NCBI GenBank assembly: GCA_032718475.1
Contig: JAUCBJ010008054.1
Location: forward strand, 1-64,000
Origin: Nemertoderma westbladi
Taxonomy: Eukaryota; Animalia; Xenacoelomorpha
DNA: 64,000 bases
Direction of reading: 5' to 3'
A program made the position numbers and the translations under genes. This document shows positions 26,329-57,758 of the stretch, in pieces. Under the pieces are notes generated by a model, which had not been told where the DNA came from, did not search any database, and saw nothing but the letters and a program-made list of their open reading frames with translations. Within the stretch, counting starts at the first letter, position 1; every line of letters begins with the position of its first letter.

Positions 26329-28068
26329 TTAGTTTATATCTACAGCATCTAGCTTTATCTTTTTCTGTTCTATTGGAGGATAGTGAGCTAATTTTCGTTT
26401 TACAATTTCCATCGAATATCTTTTAGAGACGTTGGGGGAATCATTAGGGTGAAATAGATTGAGGTGGATCTGCTTGGGGAGGAAAACTGCATCTTTTAGT
26501 GTGCGTTTGAGAAAGTTGATGCAACACTCAACAGCATAGTTTGAAGGTAGGGTTAATTTGTTTGTTGTCTTCAGGTTGACAATAATTGTTTCTGATGGTG
26601 TATGTTGAATGTGTATAAGGGGGGTGAGATAGTAATGGGAGGAAGTGGATTGTTGAATGAGATGAAAGTTGGAGAAATCACTCGCTTTTATATTTAAACC
26701 ATCGGTAAACTGAAACGTAGTTGATTTATAATCTTTTTTGATGACAGGCCATATGCCAACATAGGCTTCACCTTTGAATGAATAAATGAAAGCCGCTACT
26801 GATTCGTATAAATTAAGACGCTGGTGATTAGGTAGTTGTAGTTGCTTTGGTTCATAATCACTATTGTTAGCCAATGACTTTAGTTCAGAGAGTGCTTCTC
26901 GGGCGCGATCTGTATTGTCAATAGAGAACATGTAGTCATAGCGTCTGTCAGAAATTTCAAGGGTTTCGCAGCTGTAAGCGGTATAAATTTTTATTCGATC
27001 TGAAATTAATTATTCGTGGTTGACTTCATCGTAGCATTCGTATCCTTCGACTGCGGAATCGAACCATGAAATTTTAAGAAGTTCATTTCTCGTGAGTAAA
27101 AGTGCATCTCTTGTGGAAACAATAACTTTGTTTGAATCAACCTCAACTCCGCTCGCGATTGCAATGTTTCTTTTATTATTAATATTTGTGATATAACCAA
27201 AAGTAGAACTATCGAAAGAAACATAGTTCTCTGGCTCTAAGACAATGTGCGAGATTGGATTGATGTAAGGATGACAAATGTTTATATAATGTTGTAGTAA
27301 AGCAGCCGCGGTGTCTGAGATGGTTAACCAAACCCCATCTACTGTATCTTCTAGTTGTATTAAATCAATAGGTTTTAGTGGGGATGTTTTCGAATAACGA
27401 ACAACTTTAAAATTAAAACCAAAATAATGTGCTTTGCTGTTGTTGTAGAAACAGGTTATTTCATTCAATTGTTCAATAAAAGTTAGTACGTCATATCCAA
27501 ACAGTTTGAAGAAACGAGATTCATCTTTGAGGGGATGAATCGAGGCGTTCCAAATAATTAAAAGAATTGAGTTTGAAATATTATGAAAATCAAACAGACA
27601 CTCACCAACAAAAAAGGAAGCTTTGAGTGTTGACATACCAAGGAGCTTGTTTGCAGATTCTTGTGTTACATTGCTGTGGATATATTCAACAACTGGTTGA
27701 GGTATTACAAATGTTTCTAATGAGGTTGTCAGATTGAACGTTATATTCGATTCTGATTTGTGCAGTTTGAAACCATGGTTTGCGGAATGAAATTTATCAT
27801 TATTTAGAGTTTGATATTGACCATCCTTCAACTCAAAGCAGGATCGTAGAATGAAATGTGCATAATTTGCTGGAATGAGTTGGGGTTGGTTAGATGAAGT
27901 GGTAACCATCATTGGAAAGCGTTTGTTCGAAGGATCAAAATATAAACCGAAAGAGTTGTCTGAGAGAGATATTTGATTTTCGTTGGAAACAATTTTTACT
28001 TGATTTTCGTTGGAAACAATTTTTACTTGAGGGAAGTTGAACTTTTGAAGGAGTTGAGCTTGAGCCAT
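26329..28068 (-). pseudogene. Orphan ~579-codon reading frame with one internal TAA; contains a PC4-like motif
   Basis: ORFs 27010-28068 and 26329-26931 are in the same frame; the 26 codons between them are open (LISDRIKIYTAYSCETLEISDRRYDY). FIYSFKGEAYVGIW...DGLNIKASDFSNF resembles the PC4/Sub1 core; C-terminal KKIKL is NLS-like. Confidence 0.55.
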
Positions 28069-28174
28069 CTTGAAGAAAATATAATATTATGAATAACAAT
28101 AAATGTATTATAACTTTAAATAAAAAGTAAAATGGTCGATAATATTTTTGTAAGTGAAGTTCAAAGCGATGGAT

Positions 28175-28305
28175 GGGGGTTTATAAGGGAAAGGGTAACC
28201 AATGAAAATAAAAGTGAAGCTTGTGGGAACCAATAGAAATAAAAAGAGAGAGAGAGAGATGCGCTATTGGGTTGAGGGAATAATAAACACATTTCATTGG
28301 GTTAA
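28175..28305 (-). promoter_or_regulatory. Putative Pol II promoter (TATA box plus multiple CCAAT boxes) of the 28068 ORF
   Basis: TATAAA on the minus strand at ~28179-28184, about 110 bp upstream of the ATG; CCAAT/ATTGG at ~28199, 28230, 28266 and 28296. Confidence 0.5.
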
Positions 28306-29118
28306 TTAAATGTAAAACATTAGTTAGGATGGGAAATGGGATGATTTGAGAAGCGGGGGGTACGCTGGAGAAAAGTGTGTGTGTAATGAATGGGTTGCTG
28401 CGTCAGAGTGGGTATGTTAATTAATGTTACAGTAGAGCATCTCTGAAATTACTTCAAACAAAAAAAAACTACAGTATCTACTATAGTATAGATATGGATG
28501 GGGGTTAATTTGACACGTGGTGTTTGGGTAGTGGCTTTGTCGTTGAGCTAATACATGCGTGGGGTGGTTCATAAAGTACAATGCGAAAGAATGCAATCTA
28601 TTGCAAGAGCAGATGTTTATTATAATTTTCTTAGTCGAATTGACATAGGAGGTTTGAATAATTTAAACTCTGTAGCAGGCCTCATCCACATGTTGACAAG
28701 CAGCATAACTCAATAAAGGATTTGATGGTGGGATTAGTCATACTACATCTAATAAGAGCCCAAGCGGCCGTAGATTATTGAGGGACTGAACCAGGGCCAA
28801 ACTGGTCCATTTTATTATCGAGTGAGGCTAATTTATGTTTTGGGCCCCGTTCTCATCTTTATATTTCATTCTACGTTTACCTTCTACTGTATGACAAAAA
28901 TAATACAAATGTACTGTATATTGTATTGTACGGTTCCTATTGTATTGTACATTTCATTTGCTGTAGTACAATTTATTCATCGCGCGTCCCTATCTGATTG
29001 ATTTGTATCAAATTAAATTGCCTTTGGCAACATTATTTGATACAAATCGATTGATTAAACAATTAATTAATTGTTTAATCGACCAATTAATTAATTGTTT
29101 AATTAATTAATGACCTAC

Positions 29119-29815
29119 TTAACACCCAAGGTGTGAAGTGGGTCCAACTGTCGCCGAGGTGGGCAAACTATTACTACTAATATAATCTTGATTTGGCGAT
29201 TTCTTATTCATCAAGATTCGTATACAATTGAAAGTTTCCTCCATGATTCCAACAAATGAAAAGTTACCAAGATCGAATACCCTAGAAATAAGCGTGGTTA
29301 TTTGCGTTTTCAGCCAAATCTTATATTTATTCTTATTATCAATAGTTATTTGAGTTGCTAATGATGGCTCATCTTGACCTTGAACACCATGTATGGCGCC
29401 TGCACCAAAGTAACGTAATGGGAATTGTATACGTCTTCCCATTATCGCATTCCTGCCATAACCAACAACTGTAGGAGGGGGCTGTTTATGTTGGGATAAT
29501 TTAACTGATGGCCATGTAATTGCACTTTCAGGGTTTATCCGAAGGCATCCTTTAGGGACAACAGCTGCTTCCAGTGTATCATCACAATCAGCTAGCACTT
29601 TCGTAAGAATACACAATTGACCAATAGAAAATTTAGGTTGCACAGATTGTCTATTATATGTGAAACGGAGGATCTGGTTTAGGAACAGAATCAATTCCTG
29701 TGGTTCACGACACGATCTGGTTATAGAATTGATAATACTAGTTGAATCAGTATCCCTCCAAGAACTATCGTCTCCAGGATTTCCACTACTTACTTGATCA
29801 TGGCTAGTGATAGCA
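29119..29815 (-). pseudogene. Pif1-family (SF1B) helicase C-terminal fragment, Helitron-like
   Basis: RRIQFPLRYFGAGAIHGVQGQD matches the Pif1 motif RxQFPL...TIHKxQGxT; QITTLISRV matches QxYVALSRV. The frame stays open upstream of the annotated start. Confidence 0.7.
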
Positions 29816-29869
29816 ATTGTCCCAACTTCACTCCGGTGATGTAAAAGATAATTTTGTAATACCTCCTGT

Positions 29870-30890
29870 TCACCAGCCTGAGTTCCTACAACCTTTAGTA
29901 CATCATTTGGAACATCATCAGAACTATCAAGAAAATTTCAGCGCCTCTTTAAGATCGCAATCAATTGATCAATCAAATAACCAAATATATAGCAAATAAA
30001 TACCAAGATCAACAACAAACAGCGAAAGCATATAAATCAGTTCCTACAAATGTCTGCTTGTGTTTTCAATGCTGAAAAACGAACAAGAGAATTTGTAGAT
30101 CAAGCCCCAATTTGTGTTTATTGCAAAACTGTCAATCATAAATCAGATGATTGTGATGTGGTCCCTGGCATTTCTAAAAGAAAAGAATTGCTCGTAAAAT
30201 AAGGCCGCTGCTATAATTGTATCAAACTAAAACATACCAAGGCTTTTTGTAAAAGCCGTGGTCAATGTAAACATTGTAAAGGTAGACATCATAGTTCGAT
30301 TTGCGAAAATTCTAATAGAATCTCAAACGCAACAACTTCTGTATCAAATTCCAATAACGATAATTTATGTCTTTCCAGTAATATTTCTAGTGAAGTTTCA
30401 CAGGCTGAAGCTATGGAAAACGTCATCACCCACACATCTATAAAGGGAGGACCTCGAGCAGGGATACTACTGTGAACAGCTCGAGTTGATTGTATTAATC
30501 CAAAAACTGGAATGACAATGCTGGTTCGGGTATTCTTTGATCCAGGAAGTCATCAATCTTACATAGTAGAGAGGGTTCACTGTGAGTTGGAACTACAAAG
30601 CATTGATAAGGTTAATATTAATATTAATACATTTATGTCGGAACAATTTGAGCATAAACAACTAAACCTTGTGGAATGCATTTTAAAGAAAGAAAATTTT
30701 GAGATTTCAATAAATGTCTTGCGCGTCCCAATAATTTGCTCCACTTTAACTCAAGGCAATGCCAACTTAATCTGTCCATATTATTCACATCTTGCCAGTT
30801 TAGACTTAGCCGACAGTGGAGATTTACCAATTGGTGATAACATCGATATTTTAATAGGAATGGACTATTACTGGGATATTGTGGGATATT
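29870..30890 (+). pseudogene. Bel/Pao gag zinc knuckles and aspartic protease fragment
   Basis: CVYCKTVNHKSDDC, CYNCIKLKHTKAFC, CKHCKGRHHSSIC; VRVFFDPGSHQSYI; IDILIGMDYYW; internal stops. Confidence 0.9.
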
Positions 30891-33257
30891 GTATCAGAAC
30901 ATATGAAATTAAGATTATTTTTCAAAAATTCTTTTACTATAAATAATTACTTTAATTTTTATCTATTTTTCGCCCCACCCCAATGGGTATATAATGGCTA
31001 TAAGTTTGGTACAATTTCAAAGCATTTTATACTTGGGTTGTTTGGCGTGGACGTGGTGTGGTGTTCTAGAATATCGAAAAAAAAATGAAGAGAGCTGCTG
31101 AGCTAGATTTAAGAAGACGGTTGAACCGAGCCCGAATTTCACGTCAGGCAAAAGAGACTTACCGCTGCGCCGGTACTTCACTTTCCGTTCACTAGTAGCC
31201 AAGGTATTGTATATGGCCTAAGAAATTCTGAAAAAAAAAGAAAGAAAGAGAATCTCTAAGAAAGAGATTCTGCCTAAGAAATTCAAGGATACAGTAATAA
31301 TGCTGTAGCAATAGTACTTTCAAATATTGTTTTGCTGCTTGCTTGTTTTTATTAGAAATTATACAGATAATACAAACAAAACAAACACAAACTAAACTTG
31401 CTCAGCTATTAGCACGCGCTCTCGTTCCATTTTCATTATAAAATAGGTTACATGTTATTTTTATTAATTATATTATATATTTTATTAATTGGGACCCAGA
31501 GTCAATGGCAGTCAACCATTATCTCAGGTGGACACATCATAGCAGTTGCCACTTCTTCCCATGGTTTAAATTAAATAACCTCCCTATCTATATTTATCTA
31601 TTTCAACTTCGGGTGCAGGATTCCTAGACTTACTTAAAAACGTTATGCAAAACTTACTGCTAATTTTACGATATATTGTTTCTTCCAACACATCTATCTA
31701 CCTTTAAGAAGAATACATGTTGAAGTATGAAGTATTATTATCTGCGTTGAGGAGATTGATTCACTGCATCTTGCTGTACTGGTTTCTTATTCTAAGGGTG
31801 CATATGGTATTTCTGTTCAAATATAAGCTAGGTCATTGGGGTATGAGTATTGGCCTCCCCTGAAGCCAAATTATCACTTGATACTGTTGTATCTGTATCC
31901 ATCAGCAGCATCAGCAATGGTAGTAACTGCACCCATGCTGTGATTTATTTATTAAATTTATAACTATTGGATCATGTTCTTCTACAGCAGTGCCTTTTGT
32001 ATCAGAAAGTTTTGCTTTCTTTGTGTCATTCATGATCATGTAGTCTTACAATTATATAATACTTAGCCGACTTGCCAGAAGGTAACTTTGTTTTTGCACT
32101 GGTAACTCGCAAACAATTCCAAACAAAGATAAGAAAAATTAAATTTAAGAAAAGTCCGCGGACGACCGGCTAATTGGAGGGCTGAAGGTTAAAAAACACT
32201 CTATTAATGTTACCGAACTGAACTTTTTTAAATAAATATTATTTGTGAATATTTTAGAAACTAAAGGTGTCTGTCTCCAATTTTTGAAAATAATTTTGTG
32301 TCATTGATTTTATAATCTTGAGAACCCGAGATTCAAATGAAATGTGTCCATCTTGTAAGGCTTAAAAATTTCAGGGGTAATATAAACATTAATAACTTAG
32401 AAGCAAATTACATAATAATAATTGTACACATGTACAGTAGTACAGTACAGTCAGTAGAGTAGAGACAGTGTGCACAGAAATGTAATCACATAACTTAGTC
32501 AATATATGGTAATAGTTCAATAACTACGAAATACAACAGTACCGTTAGTGGACAGGAAAAGATAAAACGTTTCAAAAGGTGGAGTTTTACACAGGTTAAA
32601 AGGCAATAAGTTTACTGTTTTGGGTAGAAAGAATGCATTACATTGATAGAAATATTAGTTTATAATACTGTAAGCACATACCGGTAGACCTATTAAATTA
32701 TATTGATAAACAAGTACGGTACTAAGCCTACTTCAATGTACACATAATAGCATAATACTGCTGTAGGCCGGCCAACTGTAATAACAAAATACACATAACT
32801 GCATAAGATATTATTATACGTAATATTTGATTTAATGATAACAGGATAATAGGATATAAGAAGCTATTGCTTATAAAACCCGTACACTCTAGCCTATAAA
32901 TAAAATTAACTAACAGTAGACTATAAAATTAACTAACAGTAGGCTATAAAACTAACAAACAGTAGGCTAAGATTACTGCATTATATACTGTTATAATATG
33001 TAAACTGCCGAACTGGATATGTACGAAATGATACTGGAAAACTGCTGTTCTGCAGTACTGTGTGTGTACCGTACCGCAGTACCATACCGCATTACCATAC
33101 GTATATATTCTACTTTTATTAAGTAACAGTACCGGCGTCGTAATATAATAATATCTGTAGGCCTAGGTTTACTTATAAAAATACGTCGTAATATAATAAT
33201 ATCTGTAGGCCTAGGTTTACTTATAAAAATAACAGTTAATGAGCCTGTACATCTGGA

Positions 33258-34594
33258 TTATTCTGGATCTGGTGACGAATCAACGGCAGCTTCGGGATCA
33301 GCATATAGCGGTACATCTAGCGGCGCATCAGCAGCTTCGGGATCAGCTTGTAACGGTACCACTGGTGGCGCATCGGGATCAGCTTGTAATGGTAACTCTA
33401 GCGGCGCATCAGCAGCTTCGGGATCAGCCTGTAGCGGTACCTCTGGTGGCGCATCACCAGCATCGGGACCCAAAACATCAGGAACTGGGGCGACCTGAAT
33501 TATCGGGACCAGTCGAGGTTGTAGAACATGAACCACAGGAACGAGAGGGGCGGCACGGCGATATTTCATGTTCTCAACATTAACGGGGTTGGATGGCTTC
33601 AACGTTGATATGTGAAGCTCATTCACAGCGCTGGTAGTAGCGTCCTCCTTCGATACTGCGCACTTGTACCAGCCCGTGACTGTCCAACCACTGCCATTAT
33701 TCACAGCTGCAGCAATGCCGCGGATGGATTGCCTTAACCCATCTTCGTCAATGAGGGAGGGTGGCAGATTCAGCGACTGAGATGAAACAAATAATTTAGT
33801 AAGACTCCAACTTACGTAAGCCATTCCAAAATCTATGATGTCGTTGTTAAAGCACCGCACTCGCAACGACAACGCCCATCCGCCAACTTACGTAAGCCAT
33901 TCCAAAATCTATGATGTTGTTGTTAAAGCACAGGCAATCGCAATGACAACGCCCATCCGCGTTCCTGTGGTTTTGTCACGCAAACACATTGACTGACGGG
34001 TCCCAGCTCCTCCCGCCTGTCACAGAGCCAACCGCCACACGTTGGCGACACCACGCGGCCGCAGTCCAACCTTAGATTCAAATTCCTCAAAAGGAATTGC
34101 TGAAATCCAACCTTCCCTTCCAAGGATAAGTGGAAGGGAGGAAGGAATAGCAGCCGCGGGTGTGGCGGGGAGGAGCGGGTAGAAGGTAACTACCACAGGG
34201 TTATCCATGTCGTTACCAAGGAACCTGGTTCCTTTATTGCAACGACTGAGCCGATTGTAAATTCTTTATACTTCAGAACTTTAGCTGATTCCCGCGAATT
34301 AGCCGATTCCCGCGAATTATCCGTAAACATAAAAAAGCACCTCGACTCAGCCAAATCTCCCATAACAAACATTCTATCATAAATGGGTTCCTTTATGGTC
34401 CTCTTTGTCCCGGAAATCTCGGGTTCCTTTATGGCCCTCTTCGTCCCGGAAATCTTAACAGTTTTGTATTTGTCTATTGCTGCTGACGGCCTGGTTAGAA
34501 TTGTAGCGAATAGTCTATTCCCTTCAGGAGAGAACTCAATATCGTTAGAATTCTCTTGCAACTGGGCTAGGGTTATAACTTCGATTTGCGCCAT
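33258..34594 (-). pseudogene. Frameshifted orphan gene: OB-fold-like N-terminus, Cys-rich motif, acidic repeat tail
   Basis: Overlapping pieces 34190-34594, 34020-34208, 33923-34123 and 33258-33872 read as one gene; DL..RCFFMF...FTIGSVVAIKEP (OB-fold-like), CGGWLCDRR...QCVC, GWTVTGWYK, ADPEAADAP repeats; internal tandem duplications. Confidence 0.5.
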
Positions 34595-35106
34595 ATAAAA
34601 ATATTATTATTAAAATATATAATCTATACACAACACCACCAGCGTAGTAAATTGTTGTGTGATTTTAAAAATATACAAAAAAAATATTAATAAAAGAAAT
34701 TATTAGTATTCAGAGTTATTTTATTAATTATTTGCTGAAGACAGTTCGGCAAGAGGTGGGACAGCGGGACATTTGAGAGAGTGTTACCTTGTTAAAAATT
34801 ATTTACATACCGGTACATTTAATGTTTTCATACAATGTATTTCAAATAGGTGAGGAGTTGAGGAAGTTCGACATTTCCTCTAGGCCCGGCTCTGCACCTT
34901 TCTTCTCCCGGGTGGAGAAGGCGATCTTCCTCAATTACAATTACACAAAGTGTATACTGTAGCATGAGATAAGTTTGCTCTCAGTGCATTTGATGATAAA
35001 CTTTATTGGGTTAATAAAAATCATTCGCTTCCCTGGGGTCACTATCAAACAAAGGTTGAAAAACCGATAAAAAAAAACAATATACCTATTTATCGGGAGC
35101 CAAACA

Positions 35107-35661
35107 ATGAACTATCAGATAGTCAATAAGAATGTAAGTTGCCAGCAAGTGTCAGTGATTAATTTGAAAGAATTAAAAAATCAATTATCTGGTAAACACA
35201 TACTCAAACCAAATCAGTTTATATATAAGATATTTGGTGCCACATTATTAATATTTAAAAATGGTCGTATTACATTATTAGGTAATAAGTATAATTTCCA
35301 AAAAGTAAAAAAGCATATATTTGATAAAACTAGTATTAATTTGATTTTAAAATCTGTTAATTTATGTACTTATATTTTTAGTATTAAGTCTGTAGTCTAT
35401 AGGTTATTGATAAACAATACCGGGTTTTATGTTGTCTTTGATAATGTGCAACTTCAAGTTATATATGAACCTGAAATTTTTAATAATTGCAAAATAAGAA
35501 TAAATAATACCGTAGTCATTTGCTGCTTTCATACAGGTAAATGTACTTTAATGTGTTCACCTAGCAAATTTCACATTTATTACCCTATATTTAGTAAACT
35601 TGTTAATTATTTATTAATGTTTGGTGTTGTGACTTTAGGTGTAGAATATATTGGTGATTAG
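35107..35661 (+). CDS. TATA-binding-protein (TBP)-like protein, intronless, 184 aa, probably viral/Polinton-derived
   Basis: Two TBP-core repeats: YQIVN...INLKEL...GATLLIFKNGRITLLG and VIYEPEIFN...VICCFHTGKCTL (cf. YEPExFPG and LLIFxSGKxVxTG). AT-rich, no N-terminal extension. Confidence 0.7.
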   Translation: MNYQIVNKNVSCQQVSVINLKELKNQLSGKHILKPNQFIYKIFGATLLIFKNGRITLLGNKYNFQKVKKHIFDKTSINLILKSVNLCTYIFSIKSVVYRLLINNTGFYVVFDNVQLQVIYEPEIFNNCKIRINNTVVICCFHTGKCTLMCSPSKFHIYYPIFSKLVNYLLMFGVVTLGVEYIGD

Positions 35662-38097
35662 AAGGTGAAAATTAAACATTATTATTTTTCAATCAATCTA
35701 TCGGTAGTTAGGGAAAACTAACCTCGTTTGAATAAGTATGACTCTCACTGGCTGACTGCGTGCCTAGCCGGCAGTAGCTGCGTGGCTGGCTGGCTGACTG
35801 GTTGGCTGATTGGCTGGCTGCGAGGCTGACTGCGTGCCGCGAGGCTGACTGCGTGCCGCGAGGCTGACTGCGTGACTAGCTGCGAGGGTGGCTGGGTGGC
35901 TGCGAGGTGGACCGCATCCTAGCAACATGGGTGACTGCGCGCACATCCGATTGTAACTGGCTCACGATATTGTATACAATGGTTTAGTTTGTTACTGCGG
36001 GTGCTGTTACATTAATACTGTGGTACCGGTACTGCGGTACAATGCTAATAAAAGGAAATCAACATGTTGTATCTGACTATACTATTACAACAACAACAAC
36101 GACAGTATCTGATTGTAACTTGCTCACGATATTGTATACAATGGCTTAGTTTGTTACTACAGGTACTGTTACCCCTGCTAACCAGACACGCTACACGCTA
36201 TTATACCAAACGTTTGTTTATATGCTTGAATCATGTTGACATGTTTTTTTTCTAAACTTGTTTTAATCAACATGTTATTTTAACATCTAAATAACATAAT
36301 ATCCAATCATGTTATAATCAAACATTTGTTGATCACGTTTTTATGATACCTAAATGTAACATGTTTTATCATGTAATTATTTAACATTTGTTTTACACGT
36401 TATTGTGTAACATAAATCATACATGTTTATTCCAGCTGTTTGTTAAATGCTACTTTGTCGTGTTGAACAAACATCCTGCACATCATTGCCAATATGTCTT
36501 AAGGCTGTTTGAATAAACCGCCTAAAATTTACCGCCAAATTCGTTTATAGGCCTATAAATCATGCAGCAGTGCATGCAGTACTGCAGTACATCAGTCAGT
36601 CAGTAGACACTCCACTGCCTGCCCCAGCCTACCAGCACCCACTCAGCCACATTCTGAGAGCTTGACAGTAGTGCTGCAGGTAGGCAGTGTGTAGGCCAGC
36701 TGTTTACTGGTTTAAGTGCTGCAATAGGGTTGACCATACTCTGACAGTCTGATACTGCCATATGTTTGTTTACTGCCGTATGCCTATATTAACTGTTTAA
36801 GTTATTTTTAATTAAGCTTCATACTGCCTGACTGTCATATAAACTGATAAATCTTTTTATATTATACATTCAGACATTATATGTTATATAGGCCTACATA
36901 ACATATATAATACATAATACTGTAATATATGTCATATACATTATATATTATTTATGTACATTATATAGGCCTAGCAGCCTAGCCTAATTGTATTGTAATA
37001 CCAGAATACAGTAATATGTCTGTATGTAATGCAGTCAGGCAGTGCAGTGCCAGTAATTCGATGACGACGACAGTTTAGATTGGGCTCTGTCTTCCTGGCG
37101 CTGGTTGGTCGAAACAACAGGCAAGCGGCAAGGGCTGCACTGGCAGACTGGCTGACTGGAAAAATATTATGGCCTCCTCGAAATGCCGGCCTACTACCGG
37201 TACAGTGGTACGTTGGAAAGAATTTTCGAATCCAGATCTTCTGTCAACTCCACATTTAATGCGAAGGTTCTTCACTTAACAGGTTTGTATTGAACTTGAA
37301 TAGGCTTCTTACACATCGTTATTTCAGTGATTCAAGTGATTAAAATCCTAATCCTGTAATCTATTTGGATCAAATAGAGGGAAAAAGTGCCGGCGGTCGG
37401 AAGTAAATTACACATGCCAGCATGCGGTCCCAGGCAGCCAGCTAAAGATACGCATCAGATTCTGGCGATGAGGTTATTATTTTACTTACTACTACTGTAC
37501 TAGGCATTGCTGTTAGGTTAGGCCAACTTGGTACTTTGGGCCGTTTATAAATCGTCAGATCGTGCATATGCTTAAACTGTAATTTAAAATAAAACATGCC
37601 TTACTCTGGCTATCTATGGTAGGTAAGTAAATGTTTGCTTTATTTTTTACTCATTTCCTCTTTATAAACCAGTCCCCAGTGCAGTGGTAATGTGAAACAG
37701 TCTGTGATGGGTTGTGGTGACTTGTGCACGTTGATCTAATTGCTCCAATGCTATATGTATATATATTATTATCATTTTAGGTGGAATATATGAGCGACAA
37801 TGAATCCAATCATGTTTCCAATACGATACTCACACTGATTACCCAGACAACTAACAATACGTTGATCATTGATACTCAGAGGTGAGTTGTGATACCGCCT
37901 CTCCCTCTATCTACAACCTAACCCTATTCTAAGACAACACTAAACTCTAGACTTACCTAACCAAACCCTTTCACCAAGCTACCACTATATATCCCATGGC
38001 GATATTTTCTCGAAATATTTTCCAGTCTCGATGTTTTATATATCGAGACGCTTTTTTATACTTTTGGAAGCAGAGACAGAAGTTGGGCGAGACAGAA

Positions 38098-39645
38098 GTC
38101 ACAGCCACTCAAAGCTATGTTACAACCACTCAATGCTATGTCACAGTCACTCAACGCTATCTCACAGGCGCTCAATGCCATGTCACAGCCAATCAACGCT
38201 AGCCACCCAACGCTATGTCACAGCCAATCAACGCTATGTCACAGCCACTCAATGCTATGCCACAGCCACCCAACGCTATGTCACAGTCACCCAACGCTAT
38301 GTCACAGCCAATCAACGCTAGCCACCCAACGCTATGTCACAGCCACTCAAAGCTATGTCACAGCCACTCAACGCTATGTCACAGCCAATCAACGCTATGT
38401 CACAGCCACTCAATGCTATGCCACATCCACCCAACGCTATGTCACAGCCGCTCAATGCTATGTCACAGCCACTCAACGCTATGTCACAGCCAATCAACGC
38501 TAGCCACCCAACGCTATGTCACATCCAATCAACGCTATGCCACAGCCACTCAATGATATGTCACAGCCGCTCAATGCTTTGTCACAGCCACTCAAAGCTA
38601 TGTCACAGCCACTCAACGCTATGTCACAGCCAATCAACGCTATGTCACAGCCACTCAATGCTATGCCACAGCCACCCAACGCTATGTCACAGCCGCTCAA
38701 TGCTATGTCACAGCCGCTCAATGCTTTGTCACAGCCACTCAAAGCTATGTCACAGCCACTCAACGCTATGTCACAGTTACTCAACGCTATGTCACAGCCA
38801 CTCAACGCTATGTCACAGCCAATCAACGCTAGCCACCCAACGCTATGTCACAGCCAATCAACGCTATGTCACAGCCACTCAATGATATGTCACAGCCGCT
38901 CAATGCTTTGTCACAGCCACTCAAAGCTATGTCACAGCCAAGCCACTCAACGCTATGTCACAGCCAATCAATGCTATGTCACAGCCACTCAATGCTATGC
39001 CACAGCCACCCAACGCTATGTCACAGCCGCTCAATGCTATGTCACAGCCACTCAACGCTATGTCACAGCCAATCAACGCTAGCCACCCAACGCTATGTCA
39101 CAGCCAATCAACGCTATGTCACAGCCACTCAATGATATGTCACAGCCGCTCAATGCTTTGTCACAGCCACTCAAAGCTATGTCACAGCCACTCAAAGCTA
39201 TGTCACAGCCACTCAACGCTATGTCACAGCCAATCAACGCTATGTCACACCACTCAATGCTATGCCACAGCCACCCAACGCTACGTCACAGCCGCTCAAT
39301 GCTATGTCACAGCCGCTCAATGCGTCACAACCGCTCAATGCTTTGTCACAGCCACTCAAAGCTATGTCACAGCCACTCAACGCTATGTCACAGTTACTCA
39401 ACGCTATGTCACAGCCACTCAACGCTATGTCACAGCCAATCAACGCTAGCCACCCAACGCTATGTCACAGCTAATCAACGCTATGCCACAGCCACTCAAT
39501 GCTATGCCACAGCCACCCAACGCTATGTCACAGTCACCCAACGCTGGCCACCCATCGCTGGCCACCCAACGCTGTGTCACAGTCACCCAACGCTGGCCAC
39601 CCATCGCTGGCCACCCAACGCTATGTCACAGCGACAGCCACTCAA
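38098..39645. repeat. 21-bp satellite, ~70 units, with 14-bp deletion variants
   Basis: Unit GCTATGTCACAGCCACTCAAC; periodic CAATCAACGCTAGCCACCCAAC variant. Confidence 0.95.
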
Positions 39646-39814
39646 CAATTCCCCATTTATTTTTATTTAGGTTTACATCTAGTAGATAATTTATTGTAGA
39701 TGATGAAGTCTTAGTCTAATATAATCGTAGTCCGAGCCTTATATTTTTTTAACACATAAATAAATTAATTTTCCAGATCCAAGATACGGGAAAGTTATTC
39801 CACTTTGCTAGCAA

Positions 39815-40310
39815 CGGATATCCTTGGTGGAACGGACTCCGGATTCAATGATATCGACGGATCCTTGGCGGAACGGACCTCCGGATTCAGTGATATCGAC
39901 GGATCCTTGACGGAACGGACTCCGGATTCAGTGATATCGACGGATCCTTGGCGGAACGGACTCCGGATTCAGTGATATCGACGGATCCTTGGCGGAACGG
40001 ACTCTGGATTCAGTGATATCGACGGATCCTTGGTGGAATGGACTCCAGATTCAGTGATATCGACAGATCCTTGGCGGAACGGACTCCGGATTCAGTGATA
40101 TCGACAGATCCTTGGCGGAACGGACTCCGGATTCAGTGATATCGACGGATCCTTGGCGGAACGGACTCCGGATTCAGTGATATCGACGGATCCTTGGCGG
40201 AACGGACTCCGGATTCAGTGATATCGACGGATCCTTGGCGGAACGGACTCCGGATTCAGTGATATCGACAGATCCTTGGCGGAACGGACTCCGGATTCAG
40301 TGATATCGAT
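39815..40310. repeat. 41-bp minisatellite, ~12 copies
   Basis: Unit GACGGATCCTTGGCGGAACGGACTCCGGATTCAGTGATATC, head-to-tail with no spacers. Confidence 0.95.
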
Positions 40311-42449
40311 GCGGCTGAAACTGAATGATCAATGTAACTGAAAACTCCCCGTGACGTCCCAACATTATAACAGATGATTTCTCTCAAAAATAAAACTGTA
40401 ACCTAATCTATTGTGCTTAGTTTATTGTTTTGGTTAAAATAATGTGCCACTGTAACCTGCTCCTTTCCCTAAATTGAGAATTTAACATTGAGGCGGGATA
40501 TTAATTCGCCAAGATGAGATTTGCGTCCAGTTACCCCCCTTGTCTCCAATTTTGGAACATTGAAGTGAACAGGGAAATTTTTGCAACTATTTATTATATT
40601 TCAATATTGGATAATAATTTCCTTTGTGCTCTGATGGATAGCCCATACAATTTTAGGAAAAGTCACAGAATCTCGGTTTTCACAACATATCTGTTTCAGA
40701 GATACCGATTAATTTCAAAAAAATTTAAATGACCCTCACCCACCCACCCCCCCCCCCCCCCCCCAGGCCAAATAGCGTTAAAGAAGGCTGCGGTTGGTCT
40801 ATATTATTACAGTTCAAATGGAATTCTGTTTCACTTTTGTATATTATATGTATACTGTATTACAGTACAATTTTACTTAAAGTTTGTGCAATGCAGTTCA
40901 TTTGTTTAATAGGTGTTGTTGTTATTGTGAACAATAACACTAGTTTTTAGGTGGTTAAGTTGTGCTGTACTGGCTACTACTACCTTGTGCTTAATAATAT
41001 TCATGTTTTACACATAAATTATCTTCTTAATTCGAACAATTGCATACCATGGGAACAATCCGGTGGTCGAATCAATGGATGACCAAATTAGTGTAGAGAA
41101 TAACGATTTACAACGTTTAAAACAAACGTTTTCTTTGCATTAAAAAAACGTATATTTCCAAGCAATTTCGAAAGAACCGACGCATGATTCACGTTAGTTA
41201 CACATGCTAGACACACGTTTAATTCAAACGTCATAAAGAACCGGCGATTGGGTAACGTTTGTTTCATGCTATTTACACGTTTACTTCTAAACGTTTATTA
41301 CATGCCACCCGCTTGGACAAAATAACATGAAAATTACCTATTTCTGGACGTGTCGCAAATGTTTTTTCAAACGTTTGCCATGTTCAATAAAAATGTGATA
41401 TAAACATTAAAATAACATGCAATTGTTATCAGGGACATTAATACTGCGGTACCGGTACTGCAGTACAACAACAGCGACAGTACAGCAGTACTGTATTGTT
41501 TGGGTAGGTGATCTAATCCCTATATGTGAGAGCCACGCGTACCTTCTAGGTTATGACAGCAGTATGCTAATCAAGGTTCGGGTAGACAGCAGTATCCTTA
41601 TAGGTGAAAAAAAACAAATGCTATTGCATCAAATTACTGCTGTACTGATAAAGTAGATGACAGTTGTGGATAGGAGCTGCGAGGGTAGCTGTGAGGTTGA
41701 CCGCTTCCCCGCAGTGTGGCTGACTGCGTACACATCTGATTGTAACTGGCTCACGATATTGTATACATTGGCTTAGTTTGTTACTGCAGGTACTGTTACA
41801 TTAATACTGTAGTACTGGTACTGCAGTACAATGCTAATCAAAGGAAATCAGTATGCTGTATCTGACTATGCTGTTACAACAACAACGACAGTACTGCAGT
41901 ACTGTATTGTTTGGGTAGGTGATCTAATCCCTGTATGTGAGACCCCTGCGTGTAATCCGGATCATGACAGCAGTATGCTATTGCTTCAGATTACTGCTGT
42001 ACTGATACCAGTAGACTGTGACTACAGTGTTGGAAGAGTAAAACACTACCGGTACTGATAAAGCGGATGACAGTTGTGGTTAGGCCTATAATAAATTATT
42101 GAATTTATCAGTACCGGTACCAACAGGTTAACACTACATCCTATACAGTTTATGTTGCATTTCTGACTAATATTACTAGTCAACTACTGTATGTGTTATT
42201 AGTTTGCGATGTATAGGATGTTTCGCAATACCAGTACATCTATATTATAATGATATCGAGAATACTTACTGTACATGTTACGTCTACTTCATATTGTTAA
42301 ATGTGTATGGTTAACCTAGCGCAATTGACTCTTTTTTAGAGAACTTGTTGTAAAAAAATTATATTTTATTATATTTTTATATTAACATCAAGATCATCAC
42401 CAAAATAAAATTATATTATATCCCATCACATTACAAGCTTACAGTAAAC

Positions 42450-43046
42450 CTACAGTACATCTTCCACCGCAGTTATTTCTTTCTGTTTATCATCATCAGT
42501 CGCAGTTAAACGCTTTCTCATGAAAAAGTGTAGCATCTCATACCCCCCAACGCGTTTTGCTGAGCAGTATCGCAGACAGTTATCCCTTATGTTTAAGTGG
42601 AACGCACATTTATTTTCCACTGTAGTAAATTGATCGTGGAAGCGACAGGGGGTTAAATAATCATGATATTGCTTATATATTCCCAATTTCTCCACCGAAT
42701 TTGGCGCGAGAACATCGAGTTGGGTGTTTAATATTGCCCGCTTCATCAACCCAAATACATGTATATTTTTTTTATATTTTAAATGTCTCTTCATGTATTT
42801 TTTAAAGTCATCTTGCGAAATGTCACCGTAATCCCAAGGTAAATGCGAAGTCATGTCTCGTAAATTGTTTACGTGAGCTACATCTAAAGCTGATAACTTA
42901 ATATTAGGTGGGCCTTTAATTAAAAACGTCTTTACATTAGTTTTGGTGTAATTAGAATCGAATATAGCAAATTCTTTAAATACTACCGGATACTCTTTAT
43001 TGTCTATCTTATAATATTGAAAATCAACAAAAATAATATTATCCAT
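42450..43046 (-). CDS. Conserved Polinton/Maverick protein with a DEDD/RNase H-like N-terminal motif and Cys/His cluster
   Basis: FVDFQYYK...VFKEFAIFD, PWDYGD, C..H...CS; a paralog (VIDFQFYK...VFKEISV) follows the protease in the second module. Confidence 0.6.
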   Translation of the reverse strand: MDNIIFVDFQYYKIDNKEYPVVFKEFAIFDSNYTKTNVKTFLIKGPPNIKLSALDVAHVNNLRDMTSHLPWDYGDISQDDFKKYMKRHLKYKKNIHVFGLMKRAILNTQLDVLAPNSVEKLGIYKQYHDYLTPCRFHDQFTTVENKCAFHLNIRDNCLRYCSAKRVGGYEMLHFFMRKRLTATDDDKQKEITAVEDVL

Positions 43047-43077
43047 TTTATCTGATAAACAAAAGCTAAATGATTAA

Positions 43078-43530
43078 TTACAACGCTTGTTGGTTTATTT
43101 TATAATAATTAACAAGCCATTTATATAATATTATTTCATTTATTTCCACATTATTTGTAAACGCACTCATTGGATAGTTTGTGTGAATTCGATTTACCAA
43201 GTAATAAAGACAGTATAGGCCGCATGTGGTCCTCCTTGGGTCTTGAAATTGTTTGCGAGTAGTACGCCATCTTGCGGAATTTTTCTCAAGCCATTTTTCG
43301 ATGCATCTGTTTGGATATTTTGATCCGAATGAATCAAATAATTCAGCCTCATTATCTCGTATATATATTGCGATCCAATGAATCCCGGGCAGATGCTCTT
43401 TATCGGTATTTACTATTAACCCATAATCTCTTCGCTTATTATTATCTAATTTAGGTAATTTATTAGCTGGAAACACACCCAAATAGTGACCACCCACTGG
43501 AAACATATCAAGGTCCTCTGTAGATAACAT
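43078..43530 (-). CDS. Adenain-like cysteine protease (Polinton PRO)
   Basis: Catalytic motifs GIHWIAI, FDSFG, QFQ...TCGLYC; 150 aa; intact. Confidence 0.9.
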   Translation of the reverse strand: MLSTEDLDMFPVGGHYLGVFPANKLPKLDNNKRRDYGLIVNTDKEHLPGIHWIAIYIRDNEAELFDSFGSKYPNRCIEKWLEKNSARWRTTRKQFQDPRRTTCGLYCLYYLVNRIHTNYPMSAFTNNVEINEIILYKWLVNYYKINQQAL

Positions 43531-43532
43531 AC

Positions 43533-44792
43533 TTAATTGATATGTATTTCTTTCCTGCTATTTAAACTTAATGATTGATCATAAATATTAAAAACGATTA
43601 CATTTATGGTTTCAACCAACGGTTCGGCAAATCTTAATTTTAATTGGCCGTTAGTATATATCAACGGTTGCGGATCTCTAACATAGCCGTCAGCGGTTAA
43701 GTCCCAGGATAGGAGGGGGCAATTACCTAAGTAGGTTTCATGGTCTATATTATTACCTCCATAACCGTTAATATATGTATTAATGTTCTTCATTAATTGA
43801 GTATACTCAAAAATATATGTTCCATCTGTAAAATTAGGCTCGTATATTACACCACCTACTGGAAGACCGTCTACAATCAGTTCCGCGCGTCTAAGGTTAA
43901 AATGTTCAAATTTCAAGGGATTGCTAATTAATTCTCCCGAATAAGCGTTATTTGTTATGAAGCCGATAATAACTAATTTGGGTTTTTTACCATCAAATAT
44001 GTTTGTTTGGGTGTAATTTGTGGTTTGAGCGGGAATAGTAAATGTTGTAACCTCCTTTTTTTGGAATTGATATTCAATATCGTAACTCTCTAAACCTTTT
44101 ACGTGACTGCTTTCTATTACAGGATTAACCTCCATTCTTGGGATTAGGATCTTTATTTCATCTAATTCTAGCCGAAGATTTGTCACCGCGTTTGCGTTTG
44201 GAGTGATTTTAAAAATAAACGAATTTGATACTTTTCTAAAATGCATTCTTAAATCATACCCGGGTTGTATTATTTTGCTTTCAGTATCAAAATCAATCAT
44301 CAATCCACTTACAAATTGCATTTGTTTACTAAAGGCATCGCCAATAGGATGCGCGCCGGGATCAATTTCATTTCCGTGTTCAGATAAAGGCTGATGAAAG
44401 CCACCCGCACCCAGTAGCCCATTTTTATCCTCGTAAGTTGTAAATAATAAATTGGATAAGTACGACTTGTAGAAATAATGGTTATTGCTATTTTCAACCT
44501 GCTTCTCATTAAGGTCTATTTTAATATCACTCCACATAGTTTCAGCGGGGTAATTCAGCATATATATATGGGAATTTTCAAGTCGTCTATCCCACCGTAC
44601 AGTACATTTTGTAATTAATAACGCATCTTGCAGTTTCGTATAGAATTCATTGGATCTCGGTACAAGGAACGTGACTTCCCTAGACTCACTTCTGAGATTA
44701 GATACGGGGTAAATTGTTTCATAATGCTTTGCTTTAAATTCAGTCTGTATTGGCTGTGTAGAAAATAAATCTAATTCCTTAATAATTGACAT
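43533..44792 (-). CDS. Polinton/adintovirus-like major capsid protein (double jelly-roll, hexon-like)
   Basis: ELDLF..PIQT N-terminus, NIFDGKKPKLVIIGF, AYSG...NPLKFEHFN, WDLT, LKLRFAEPL; position between basic protein and protease; 419 aa, intact. Confidence 0.85.
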   Translation of the reverse strand: MSIIKELDLFSTQPIQTEFKAKHYETIYPVSNLRSESREVTFLVPRSNEFYTKLQDALLITKCTVRWDRRLENSHIYMLNYPAETMWSDIKIDLNEKQVENSNNHYFYKSYLSNLLFTTYEDKNGLLGAGGFHQPLSEHGNEIDPGAHPIGDAFSKQMQFVSGLMIDFDTESKIIQPGYDLRMHFRKVSNSFIFKITPNANAVTNLRLELDEIKILIPRMEVNPVIESSHVKGLESYDIEYQFQKKEVTTFTIPAQTTNYTQTNIFDGKKPKLVIIGFITNNAYSGELISNPLKFEHFNLRRAELIVDGLPVGGVIYEPNFTDGTYIFEYTQLMKNINTYINGYGGNNIDHETYLGNCPLLSWDLTADGYVRDPQPLIYTNGQLKLRFAEPLVETINVIVFNIYDQSLSLNSRKEIHIN

Positions 44793-44794
44793 TA

Positions 44795-45355
44795 TTAAAA
44801 AATACTTTTTTCGCAGTGTTTCAGTTTGCCTTTTATATTTCTCTTTTTACTACGTCGATGATGTATGTTCATAGACATTGGTCTAGTGGGTCGCTTTAAA
44901 TCTCTATAAACTTTTTCTACAACTGACCTTGTTGACGGTTTCATTTTATTTAATGCTTTATTAATAACCGTATTAGCCTGCTGATGTAAGACCCGCTTAC
45001 CTTTTGGTATTACGTGTTGTCTCATAAATTTTGTGGTAAATGGAAAAGCTTTTTGTAAAACTTTTTTAGCTAATGGCTTACCAAATTTTTTCAATGTCGA
45101 TAAAGCGTCTGTAAATATACCTTCTCCGTGTTGATTTGCCCGCATACCTCTAGGATAACGTTGAAAACGACGTTGTTTTAAGTTTGGACCAAATGAGCCA
45201 ATTTGTTGACCGTAAGGGTCAATATATAAACCACCTCGAAAAACAGGAACTTGCGTCGAGCCTCTCGTACTTCTACCACCTTTAAAAACAGCAAGATTCG
45301 AGTCTGCACCACCATATTGAGGTTTACTGTATCTTTGAAATAAATCAGAATCCAT
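44795..45355 (-). CDS. Basic virion core / membrane-lytic-like protein with GG and GxG motifs
   Basis: Lys/Arg-rich; QYGG, FKGG, FRGG, QHGEG followed by amphipathic IFTDALSTLKKFGKPLAKKVL; directly upstream of the major capsid gene. Confidence 0.65.
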   Translation of the reverse strand: MDSDLFQRYSKPQYGGADSNLAVFKGGRSTRGSTQVPVFRGGLYIDPYGQQIGSFGPNLKQRRFQRYPRGMRANQHGEGIFTDALSTLKKFGKPLAKKVLQKAFPFTTKFMRQHVIPKGKRVLHQQANTVINKALNKMKPSTRSVVEKVYRDLKRPTRPMSMNIHHRRSKKRNIKGKLKHCEKSIF

Positions 45356-45356
45356 T

Positions 45357-46093
45357 TTAATTTATTCGTTTAAAGTGTAATGTAATAGATATTGTCCCGT
45401 ATTCAAAATTCAAATCTTTTCCTTCTTTGTCTGTTATTTCAATATGAATGTATGTTATCTTATATGATTTTTTTACAGGGATATAATGAATTGTATCCTT
45501 GACAAATTCTTTATTTATTACGCTACCATATTTCACGTCATCAGGTATCGCAACACGACGAAGTAAAGCTAAACCAAAGTCATTAATATATTGATTTTCA
45601 ATTATATTAGTTGTCACGTACATGTTCGACTTAGGTTCTGGAATAGAATTGGGTGGTTGAGGGCATAAAAATACCATCTGGTAAGCTTTTTCTCCAATTC
45701 CGATAACCTTTATTAAATAACCCTTTATATTATTTTTCGTCTTCAAAATAATTTTAAAATTTGGATTTAAATTCGCGCCGAGATTATTTTCAGTAATTCC
45801 AAAATAATAGGCTAATTGTTGACCTATAAATAAATACTGTAGAACAAACCGTATGGAAGTGTATCCTCAAAATTTTTTTTCCCTTTTTTTAATAAAATAA
45901 CATTCTCTACATTGTTATACATGGACGGCAACGTTGCTAAGTAAAATATACTTTTTATACCTACCACCCAGTTTTCGTTTGGGTTTATAGGTAGGTAAGG
46001 CGCCATGGAAATTGATCTGATAACTACTAGCGCTATTGCGGGGAAAATCAATTGGACAGGAGTTACTCGGTAGTCTTACGTAGAATTCATCCA
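45357..46093 (-). pseudogene. Minor capsid (penton-like) protein, copy 2, frameshifted
   Basis: MDEFYVRLPSNS...FPRNSASSY N-terminus; C-terminus MYVTTNIIE...LLR...HYIPV...IEITDKEG...ITLHFK; split over frames with stops. Confidence 0.7.
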
Positions 46094-46959
46094 TCACCGC
46101 CACCCCGTATTAACTTAAGTGTTATAACAGTGCGACCTCCGCTAAAATTAATTAATTCGCCTTGTCCGTCATGTAAAGTAATTAAGATTGTTTTTAGTTT
46201 TTTATTCAACAATGGGTAATAGCAAATGCTCTCGTATTCGTGATTAATATATTTTCGATTTAATTGCGTTAAAGGGCAGGTTCTTAAGAGCGGAGCTAAA
46301 GCGTCACCAACAAATGAGCTCTTAATAATATCTGTATATATAAAGATAGTGTCTTTATTACGTGTTATATTCGTGGGAGCTGGAAAATCTAAAATGCCAA
46401 TTTCCGAAATTTTTGGTCCGCTATAATTTAAAATTAATATCAGCTGTTCTATATTGCTTAATTCATCTACTGTAGTGGTACTGTATATATCCCAATTCGG
46501 AATATCCGGATGATTCTGATCCAATAACGGTTTTAAGCCTAGAAATTGTATTAAATCACCACGTAGACTTAATTGTATTTTTTTCAACTTTTTAGGAAAT
46601 TTAAATTTAATTCTAGAATTATTTGTATTAAAAATGAATTCGAAATCTCTATATTTCGCTTCAGAATTAAACAGTTTATTTATATCATCAATAATCACTT
46701 GAATAGAGCTATGCATACCAGGAAATAAACTATATAATTTGGCATCTTTTGCATATACCCCGATTGACAGCGAGATTTGAGTTTGCAGCGTAATATTACT
46801 GTATGTTGCTTGGTATTGAAGCTCAGCCAAACCAATTTTAGCGTTTGGACCAATATATAATTCTTCGGCTAAATCAACAGTAAACTCACTAGGATTATTA
46901 TTGGGGTAAGTGTTTAATGAGCTATCTTAAAGTAGAGTGATATATGTATCTGTGGCCAT
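46087..46959 (-). pseudogene. Minor capsid (penton-like) protein, copy 1, one premature stop
   Basis: In-frame ATG at 46959: MATDTYITLL*DSSLNTYPNNNPSEFTVDL (TAA at 46927-46929); C-terminus IFIYTDII...VGD..APLLR...YYPL...LHDGQGELINF. Confidence 0.75.
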
Positions 46960-47203
46960 TATTATTATTATTATTTAAGCTCTCTCTACTTGACTCCATT
47001 GTACATACAGTATAATGTTAAATTATAGACATCTGTGACCACGTTCATTGTCGCATCTTCTACAGTATATGCGAGGGATCAATATTTTACTGACTTTATT
47101 TAAAGCGGATGAACTATAGATATAGTAATATCATTCGAGTTAATATTGATTAATTACGGTCATATGCGACCAAAATGAATTAACATACAGTATAAACCTA
47201 AGC

Positions 47204-47710
47204 TTATTGAATATGCTGTACCCACGACTGTTTCTTGGATCCGATGAATCGGACTAAATATTCTTTCTTCCCATTGCGTACACGTTCTTTAAGTTTGCCA
47301 ATATTTTTGTCAATTGGTAGATAAATATTACTATTCGGGTGGACCTTTTGGAGTTCGTGAGAATAAAATGCGCCATTTATTATAGCTCCAGCGCTGTCCT
47401 TAATATCGAACATTACCGCTGGTACTCTATCCAACCTGACACGATGAATAATAAATAATTCACGTGTCCATTGTTCTCGATAGCCTTTAGCAAAAGCAGT
47501 ACGAGCGATAGATAATCGTACTGTATCTCCAACTTTAAATTTTATTTTCTTGTGATTAATCTGTCTATATTTACCATATAATATATTCATTAATTCAGTT
47601 TCATTAAATTTATTAACATCAATGGGAGTCATTTGTATTGTCCTATGATATGACCTATTATAAGCTGAGATAAGCTTAGGTAAAATTTTTATCCAAACAT
47701 TATTTCCCCG
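47204..47710 (-). pseudogene. Polinton/Maverick retroviral-like integrase, C-terminal half
   Basis: WIKILPKLISAYNRSYHRTIQMTP, KFKVGDTVRLS, FAKGY..QWTRELF, GAFYSHELQKV and chromo-like KEYLVRFIG..SWV; catalytic DDE N-half missing. Confidence 0.88.
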
Positions 47711-52922: not shown

Positions 52923-53226
52923 ACATTGAAAAATAGTAGAAGTTACCTGATGCTAAGTGTAGACACCCGAACACCTGTAAAATAAAGGTTGGTGATTGGA
53001 TGCAGTACTAGCGTTGGGTGACTAATAACGCCTCTAGCGGAATAAGCGGGAACTTGAGAAGTTACCATGGTTACGGATGAAATGCTGACATCTGATTGGT
53101 TGAAATAATAACGACCACTGCTAATGGTTGAAATGGTGGCTTCTGATTGGCTGCAGTACTAGAAATGGATGGTAATGATGGGCTACGGGTGACCTTGTGC
53201 GGGGGGACATGTAATATATACTACTA

Positions 53227-53988: not shown

Positions 53989-54519
53989 TGGTGGGGAGCG
54001 TCCTGGTCGACATATTTTCTGAACACGTGCTCCCTATTGATTGGCACTATTTTGATAATATGTACATGGGCAGCCATCACCATCCCTTCCACGTTAGTGG
54101 CTGACTTCGCACACCAAAACACATTCCACCGACGATCTCCGTACCGGTCGAATTCACCAACAACGTGGGCCCGGGCAGCGCCCCCTGGGATGCGATTCGT
54201 CTTTGCCTACATGATTATATAAAATGTGTAAATGAAACATAAAAAAATATGGATATTCTTGTCCCATGCATTTTTACAAGTATTTTTGTTATTCTATAAA
54301 TATTACAATTCAACATACTGTATGTAGTAATTCAACTAATTAATATAATTCAAAAGCTTGAGTTCTAATTTTTGCTGTTAGTTTTTGTAATTATGATAAC
54401 TTTTATCCAAAAATACATTAGGTTCTAAAATGTCAAACATGTGAGTGCCATATAGTTAGTTTTTTAGTTTATACTAATATGATTCAATACAGCAAATGTA
54501 TTGTAGTTTTGTATTATAT

Positions 54520-56497: not shown

Positions 56498-56504
56498 AAT
56501 AATA

Positions 56505-57755: not shown

Positions 57756-57758
57756 ACA

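What the first reader, a model, noticed from the sequence alone, without database searches (positions are those of the whole stretch)
26329..47710. Candidate system: endogenous Polinton-like virus carrying its own basal transcription kit (TBP-like + PC4-like) next to a capsid module
Seen: three AT-rich, intronless, compact coding blocks within 21 kb, namely a PC4-motif frame with TATA/CCAAT promoter (26329-28068), a two-repeat TBP-like ORF (35107-35661) and a virion module (42450-47710). Removing the 5.26-kb transposon at 36173-41434 leaves the TBP-like gene only ~1.5 kb from, and convergent with, the capsid module. Known: TBP and PC4 both act at the Pol II pre-initiation complex; Polintons carry variable accessory genes. 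Inference: one lineage of adintovirus-like elements encodes factors that redirect host Pol II to viral promoters. The TBP-capsid link is fairly well supported by proximity; the PC4-capsid link is weaker because other TE fragments intervene.
Basis: partly seen in the sequence, partly recalled or inferred. Interest (0 to 1): 0.82.

Follow-up and report, generated by a model that had tools for sequence, protein, structure and literature searches.

The report
Polinton virus carrying its own TBP
A broken copy of a very abundant virus-like element (Polinton) in an animal genome carries its own altered TATA-binding protein facing its capsid genes, which likely steers the host's RNA polymerase to the viral late genes, while the nearby gene called 'PC4-like' matches no PC4 profile and likely belongs to another repeat.

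Summary
Half right. The TBP-like gene (35107-35661) passes Pfam's TBP cut-off. It keeps three of four DNA-bending phenylalanines and the acidic TFIIB-binding motif. It belongs to the Polinton: without a 5.26-kb transposon it lies 1,524 bp from the virion block, both share one very high contig depth in three of four runs, and 8 of 48 informative related loci carry a TBP gene facing the protease. Two related lineages have a variant box (AYGCAAA) before late genes; this copy shows none. The 'PC4-like' frames form one 579-codon gene that matches no PC4 profile and shows over tenfold lower depth. True PC4 genes fill the same slot in 21 other loci, never beside TBP: alternatives, not a kit. Best reading: a herpes-like late-promoter factor (inferred). 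The copy is a defective 7.6-kb fragment. TBP is named in one published MELD-virus figure legend; this scan found Polinton TBPs before in other genomes.

The parts
35107..35661 (+). Divergent two-repeat TBP-like gene, 184 aa, intact frame
   Evidence: Pfam PF00352 E 3.1e-9; Atlas 0.95 to TBP clusters; profile A5 hits 35 solved TBP sequences, best E 1.5e-23; HMM of four related-locus TBPs hits only this of 643 window frames at E<=1, E 1.2e-8
34886..35129 (+). Left end of the abundant block; short open frame (about 53 codons) overlapping the TBP start, likely the remnant of an upstream gene; family not identified
   Evidence: Depth step and loose ends at 34938-34989; frames; relatives have an overlapping upstream gene
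35662..36172 (.). Spacer, left part, degenerate tandem units
   Evidence: Self-matches 35894-36107 with 41683-41893; high depth
36173..41434 (.). Unrelated 5,262-bp DNA transposon with short TIRs, 2-bp duplication and internal satellites; splits the block
   Evidence: boundary contigs and low depth
41435..42449 (.). Spacer, right part
   Evidence: Depth 140k-276k in X1; some copies diverge at 42422 (loose ends)
42450..43046 (-). 198-aa accessory ORF; DEDD-nuclease-like by eye only
   Evidence: Weak relatives beside the protease in L021 and L039; no Pfam or PDB hit
43078..43530 (-). Adenain-type cysteine protease
   Evidence: PF00770 E 2.2e-6; hits 69 of 81 loci
43533..44792 (-). Major capsid protein, 419 aa, intact frame, long branch
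   Evidence: 45 homologues at 21-29% identity; hits 81 of 81 loci; tree
44795..45355 (-). Basic core-protein-like ORF
   Evidence: Position and weak hits (E 0.02) to the genes in the same slot of relatives
45357..46094 (-). Penton-like gene 1, broken by two in-frame stops
   Evidence: hits in 25 loci
46087..46958 (-). Penton-like gene 2, broken by one stop near its start
   Evidence: hits in 46 loci
47204..47770 (-). 3' part of the retroviral-type integrase; right end of the abundant block
   Evidence: Hits in 38 loci, best E 5e-32; relatives' integrases are rve+chromo; depth falls after 47787
26329..28068 (-).
   Evidence: 11 of 15 listed variable sites at third codon positions, p 0.002; no homologue; depth 5k-13k in X1
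28180..28300 (-). Host-type promoter of the orphan gene: four CCAAT/ATTGG boxes and TATAAA
   Evidence: Sequence; function untested

Best explanation
The stretch 34.9-47.8 kb is a defective 7.6-kb fragment of an abundant Polinton/adintovirus, split by a later transposon, whose own TBP-like gene faces the capsid-protease block and likely encodes a promoter-selection factor that brings host Pol II to the viral late genes. Shown: the TBP fold by profile, the residue pattern, the layout, and the same layout in related elements. Inferred steps: (1) the gene is made early, since in L009 and L013 it lies on the pPolB-like strand; (2) the protein binds a box that host TBP reads poorly, since one intercalating Phe is Pro in all 8 aligned proteins; (3) it recruits host TFIIB and Pol II through the kept acidic YExE motif; (4) capsid, penton, core, integrase and ATPase genes are switched on. 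The 579-codon gene at 26.3-28.1 kb is a real gene of unknown family on a less abundant repeat. PC4 is what another Polinton lineage carries in the TBP slot instead.
For: TBP. Invariant N7, P35, F50, Y120, E121, E123, F125, F141; the profile's alignment to 3oc3_C puts P35 on the first Phe. Depth, X1: TBP bins 110k-178k and 41444-47787 140k-557k, against 240-315 to the left, 616-1,273 in the transposon and 177-2,675 to the right; X2 and X3 show the same steps. Relatives: of 48 loci with 250 nt or more past the protease, 8 have TBP, 21 PC4, 19 neither, none both; all 8 pass Pfam's cut-off. L013 holds ATPase-like, integrase, capsid, protease, TBP and pPolB-like genes in 14.8 kb. The capsid tree puts all 7 TBP rows, the window included, on one side of a 96* branch, away from the 8 PC4 rows. 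AYGCAAA lies within 70 nt before 16 of 25 starts in 5 TBP loci and 4 of 5 in L012, against 4 of 214 elsewhere. Canonical TATAWA precedes 1 of 19 starts in TBP-clade loci and 37 of 120 in the other 24 loci (my sum).
Against: No contig is shown to bridge TBP and capsid genes; the two sides were laid separately. Summed depth is no copy number by the tool's own warning; X1 and X3 are one sample; X4 shows no such steps; TBP and spacer depth are about a third of the capsid's. No variant box in this copy (best: TATAA before 4 of 6 starts, p 0.03, one of 7 patterns tried). The AYGCAAA motif was picked by eye from these loci, its capsid-gene hits lie in coding sequence, and L009/L014 have 0 of 6. De novo it is significant only in L008 (p 0.003, 28 loci tested; L013 p 1.0). 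The carriers are two kin lineages. The window's capsid is a long branch (1.71) and the tree is unrooted. The TBP model was unreliable (pLDDT 40). No expression data.
Confidence: 0.6

Rival explanations
1. The TBP-like gene is a true Polinton gene but works as a decoy or repressor: it ties up TFIIB, NC2 or Mot1, or sits on early or host promoters.
For: Acidic motif kept while the DNA surface is altered; no variant box in this copy; canonical TATAAA before two of its six genes.
Against: Variant box gained and canonical TATA scarce specifically in TBP-clade loci; three Phe and the first Asn are invariant.
Confidence: 0.2
2. One reading: the 579-codon gene is a very divergent multi-repeat PC4-fold protein of the same element, acting with TBP at the pre-initiation complex or on single-stranded DNA.
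For: Strand-helix pattern by eye; weak internal repeat (segments 1 and 5, 0 of 500 shuffles, 28 pairs tried); Polintons do carry PC4 genes (A3 hits solved PC4, E 6e-10); the gene upstream of TBP in relatives is faintly PC4-like (hhalign E 0.14; one member P 4e-4).
Against: No PC4 match; Atlas best 0.76; depth over tenfold below TBP in X1-X3, with 7 kb of mostly low-depth DNA and retrotransposon debris between; TBP and PC4 never together in 48 loci.
Confidence: 0.12
3. The TBP-like gene is a host retrocopy or part of another repeat that lies here by chance.
For: GC 0.25 against 0.32-0.36 in the virion genes; repetitive spacer; some copies diverge at 42422.
Against: No single-sequence hit to any TBP in PDB at E<=1 or to any of 1.84 billion proteins at E<=0.001; shares the Phe-to-Pro change with Polinton TBPs; same slot in 8 loci.
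Confidence: 0.05

Closest known systems
Polintons/Mavericks/adintoviruses (PMC8502044, passages and section 3.4; PMC8097293, passages)
   Same: Capsid, penton-like, core, adenain and rve integrase genes in the usual order; accessory genes flank the core.
   Different: A TBP gene marks one capsid lineage. PMC8502044 lists 'TBP' only in the legend of Fig. 5 (MELD viruses); the figure is not held, so which virus is unknown. No mechanism in the text I saw.
Beta/gammaherpesvirus TBP mimic, KSHV ORF24 with TATTWAA late promoters (PMC12529657, passages)
   Same: Virus without its own RNA polymerase encodes a TBP-fold protein; variant box before late genes (seen here in relatives only).
   Different: ORF24 keeps four Phe, lacks the acidic TFIIB residues, has extra domains and five partner proteins. 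The Polinton protein is a bare 184-aa core with three Phe and the acidic motif.
Cellular TBP (PF00352; PDB 3oc3_C, 1tbp_A)
   Same: Two-repeat core, first Asn, three Phe, YEPExF motif.
   Different: Too divergent for single-sequence hits; first Phe is Pro; second Asn is Ser here, Asn or Thr in relatives.
Mirusvirus TBP (PMC10132985, passages)
   Same: Viral TBP gene (59% of mirusvirus genomes).
   Different: Those are large viruses with their own RNA polymerase subunits.
PC4/Sub1 (PF02229; PDB 4usg, 1pcf)
   Same: Matches the gene in the same slot of 21 other Polinton loci.
   Different: Does not match the window's 579-codon gene.

Membership tests
Polinton/adintovirus | Major capsid protein | tested here: met
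   Homologues named capsid protein; 81 of 81 loci; fold itself not shown, no PDB sequence hit
Polinton/adintovirus | Adenain protease | tested here: met
   PF00770 above cut-off
Polinton/adintovirus | Penton (minor capsid) | tested here: inconclusive
   Two broken genes match same-slot genes of relatives; the name rests on position and recall
Polinton/adintovirus | rve integrase | tested here: met
   3' fragment only
Polinton/adintovirus | pPolB and packaging ATPase | tested here: inconclusive
   Absent from this truncated copy; like genes lie beside TBP in L013 (both), L009 (pPolB-like), L008 (ATPase-like) by similarity to L001; Pfam gave no polymerase family
Polinton/adintovirus | Terminal inverted repeats and target duplication | tested here: inconclusive
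   None at the block ends or in four incomplete TBP loci
TBP (PF00352) | Two-repeat TBP core | tested here: met
   single-sequence model inconclusive
TBP (PF00352) | Four intercalating Phe | tested here: not met
   Three kept, first is Pro in 8 of 8
TBP (PF00352) | Acidic TFIIB-binding motif | tested here: met
   E121 and E123 invariant; role from PMC12529657 passage and recall
TBP (PF00352) | Binds a TATA box | not testable with these tools
   Needs biochemistry
PC4/Sub1 (579-codon gene) | PC4 profile match | tested here: not met
PC4/Sub1 (579-codon gene) | PC4 fold | tested here: inconclusive
   pLDDT 32; no Foldseek match at E<=0.001
Herpesvirus late TBP-mimic system | Large multi-domain mimic with partner activators | tested here: not met
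   184-aa core only
Herpesvirus late TBP-mimic system | Variant late box | tested here: inconclusive
   Seen in L008/L011 and L012/L013, not in L009/L014 or the window

The most novel reading that the evidence does not exclude
Animal Polintons split into lineages with interchangeable transcription cassettes in one slot facing the protease: a minimal TBP that reads a private late box and still docks host TFIIB, or a tandem PC4. The TBP form would be the smallest known viral system for retargeting Pol II, one 20-kDa protein, possibly with a far-diverged PC4-fold partner encoded just upstream.
Probability: 0.4. Interest if true: 0.82.

Novelty: new variant of a known kind. Interest (0 to 1): 0.62.

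Why it matters
How Polintons time their genes without an RNA polymerase of their own is open; coral polintoviruses show gene-class-specific expression (PMC11131425, passage). A self-encoded TBP with a matching box gives a directly testable early-to-late switch, argues that these elements run a viral programme, and would be a natural TBP-promoter pair with altered specificity. The TBP-or-PC4 slot gives a built-in comparison.

Tried and rejected
No whole genome is held, so copies could not be mapped. Single-sequence searches with the TBP-like protein found nothing; its model was poor and Foldseek gave no match at E<=0.001, with TBP chains only among weak rows. The 579-codon gene: no homologues, Atlas under 0.8, model unusable. 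None of 10 window proteins is in the collection exactly. Viral-contig scans gave only L001. Complex prediction of the L011 TBP with its upstream gene: no answer, score 0.00, no evidence either way. No RNA holder listed: no evidence on expression. Run X4 (kind only guessed) covers the orphan gene, TBP, pentons and integrase but not 43640-44859: not interpreted. No TIRs in four TBP loci. Boxes from earlier notes (TATAAG, TAAGA, YATAAAC) and TATTWAA: 0 of 6 starts here. No cellular TBP sequences were obtained, so no TBP tree. Literature: searches found no paper on a Polinton TBP mechanism or Polinton PC4; term searches of main texts gave no TBP in PMC8097293, PMC11131425, PMC11071296, PMC10748475, 10.64898/2026.06.19.733378 and 10.64898/2026.10.13.758929; one supplement file of PMC8502044 had no hit. 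Figures, preprint supplements, Repbase and subscription journals were not seen and may hold prior annotation.
Full report
What is there. The three blocks exist as described. The virion block reads, on the minus strand: integrase 3' end, two penton-like genes, core, major capsid, protease and a 198-aa accessory gene. It is a defective fragment: the penton-like genes carry one and two in-frame stops, the integrase lacks its start, and ATPase, pPolB and TIRs are missing. No genome is held, so I used public runs and related loci.

The TBP-like gene. It passes Pfam's cut-off with two stretches; 29 of 30 Atlas hits are TBP clusters, best 0.95. Alone it finds no TBP in PDB and nothing among 1.84 billion proteins, so it is no recent host copy. 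Aligned with 7 relatives it hits 35 solved TBP sequences. N7, F50, F125, F141 and the acidic YExE motif are invariant; the first of the four intercalating Phe is Pro in all 8. The roles of these residues are from passages of PMC12529657 and recall; the mapping is my reading of the alignments.

Link to the capsid block. The transposon 36173-41434 is real and removable on paper, leaving 1,524 bp. In X1, X2 and X3 summed contig depth jumps near 34.9 kb, drops inside the transposon, resumes at 41.44 kb and drops after 47.79 kb. X1: TBP 110k-178k, right part 140k-557k, left flank 240-315. X2: 15k-30k, 9k-95k, 98-152. X3: 8k-31k, 12k-102k, 57-118. Limits: the tool says this is no copy number, X1 and X3 are one sample that may be the source, X4 shows no steps, and no contig bridges the two sides. 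Of 32 listed variable sites in these genes 17 are third positions (p 0.016; only the 40 best rows of each table were shown).

Relatives. A capsid alignment gave 81 loci: 1 viral contig and the best 80 of 370 confirmed metagenome stretches. Of 48 with 250 nt or more past the protease, 8 have a TBP gene on the opposite strand there, 21 a PC4 gene, 19 neither, none both. The 8 are 6 after merging near-identical pairs; all pass Pfam. The PC4 set hits solved PC4 (17 of 22 ORFs aligned). In a tree of 40 capsid proteins (32 of 75 rows, near-duplicates dropped by hand, plus 8 of the 45 homologues; quick, unrooted) TBP and PC4 carriers each lie on one side of a branch; the window is a long branch, so its place is unsure.

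Promoter box. The idea came from earlier notes of this scan, which are unchecked AI notes on other genomes. In my loci AYGCAAA precedes 16 of 25 starts in 5 TBP loci and 4 of 5 in L012, against 1 of 81 in PC4 loci and 3 of 133 in others; it often sits 30-47 nt before the ATG. Canonical TATAWA precedes 1 of 19 starts against 37 of 120. Against: the motif was picked by eye, capsid-gene hits are in coding DNA, the de novo test holds only for L008 (p 0.003 among 28 loci), L009/L014 lack it, and the window's six starts show no variant box.

The 'PC4-like' gene. It is one 579-codon frame with one stop; the runs' contigs differ from the window in that codon, so the break looks private to this copy. 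It is under coding constraint (11 of 15 sites at third positions) and has a host-type CCAAT/TATA promoter. It matches neither Pfam PC4 nor the Polinton PC4 profile, has no homologue, and could not be folded. Its depth is 5k-13k, 1.1k-1.9k and 1.3k-2.1k in X1-X3, over tenfold below the TBP gene's peak. A remote PC4 fold is not excluded, but nothing ties it to this Polinton. The better candidate partner is the gene overlapping the TBP start in relatives, faintly PC4-like, of which the window keeps at most a remnant.

Mechanism. Most likely (0.6) an early-made minimal TBP binds a lineage-specific box and recruits host TFIIB and Pol II to late genes. That the gene is a Polinton gene I put near 0.93; binding, timing and activation are inferred. 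Rivals: decoy or repressor (0.2), the full kit (0.12), chance neighbour (0.05).

Novelty. It works like the herpesvirus late TBP mimic but fails that family's features. TBP appears in the Fig. 5 legend of PMC8502044 (figure not held). Eight searches and six main-text checks found no account of a Polinton TBP mechanism or of the TBP-or-PC4 slot (83, 88, 101-103, 113). This scan has noted Polinton TBPs in other genomes, none like this DNA. Verdict: new variant of a known kind, interest 0.62.

Noticed in passing
window 29119-29937 (-): 272-codon stop-to-stop frame whose end recalls a Pif1/Helitron helicase motif (from memory); no Pfam hit. It lies upstream of the orphan gene on the same strand.
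   Followed up: partly
window 33258-33824 and 34190-34594 (-): Two unidentified ORFs with short internal duplications; one X4 contig covers both without them.
   Followed up: partly
window 31600-34885 and 48276-48500: Both flanks of the Polinton fragment have similar modest depth (X1 about 170-315), above the 28-39 of contigs near 25 kb: the fragment may ride in a larger few-copy element. A contig spans the right junction (X3 record 23).
   Followed up: no
window 26975-27765: The orphan gene is covered by single long contigs of high depth (5,104 in X1): a very homogeneous family.
   Followed up: partly
L008:7197-8244, L011:8139-9186, L015:2281-2640: L008 and L011 have two paralogous unknown genes upstream of TBP; L015 has a RING-finger-like ORF there (by eye).
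   Followed up: partly
L006: Falls in the TBP clade and has AYGCAAA before its core gene, but the contig ends before the TBP slot.
   Followed up: no
window 30512-30946, 12250-12936, 62569-63204: BEL/Pao retrotransposon fragments (DUF1758, Peptidase_A17).
   Followed up: no
window 16500-17351 and 19112-20395: Host-type genes: mitochondrial carrier and MFS transporter.
   Followed up: no
window 51327-52618, 53106-54125, 38019-40411: Satellites of 62, 30, 21 and 41 nt.
   Followed up: no
window 56493-58217 (+) and 59089-60633 (-): Long frames without a clear family; weak Ulp1 protease hit (E 0.013) at 57756-58214.
   Followed up: no
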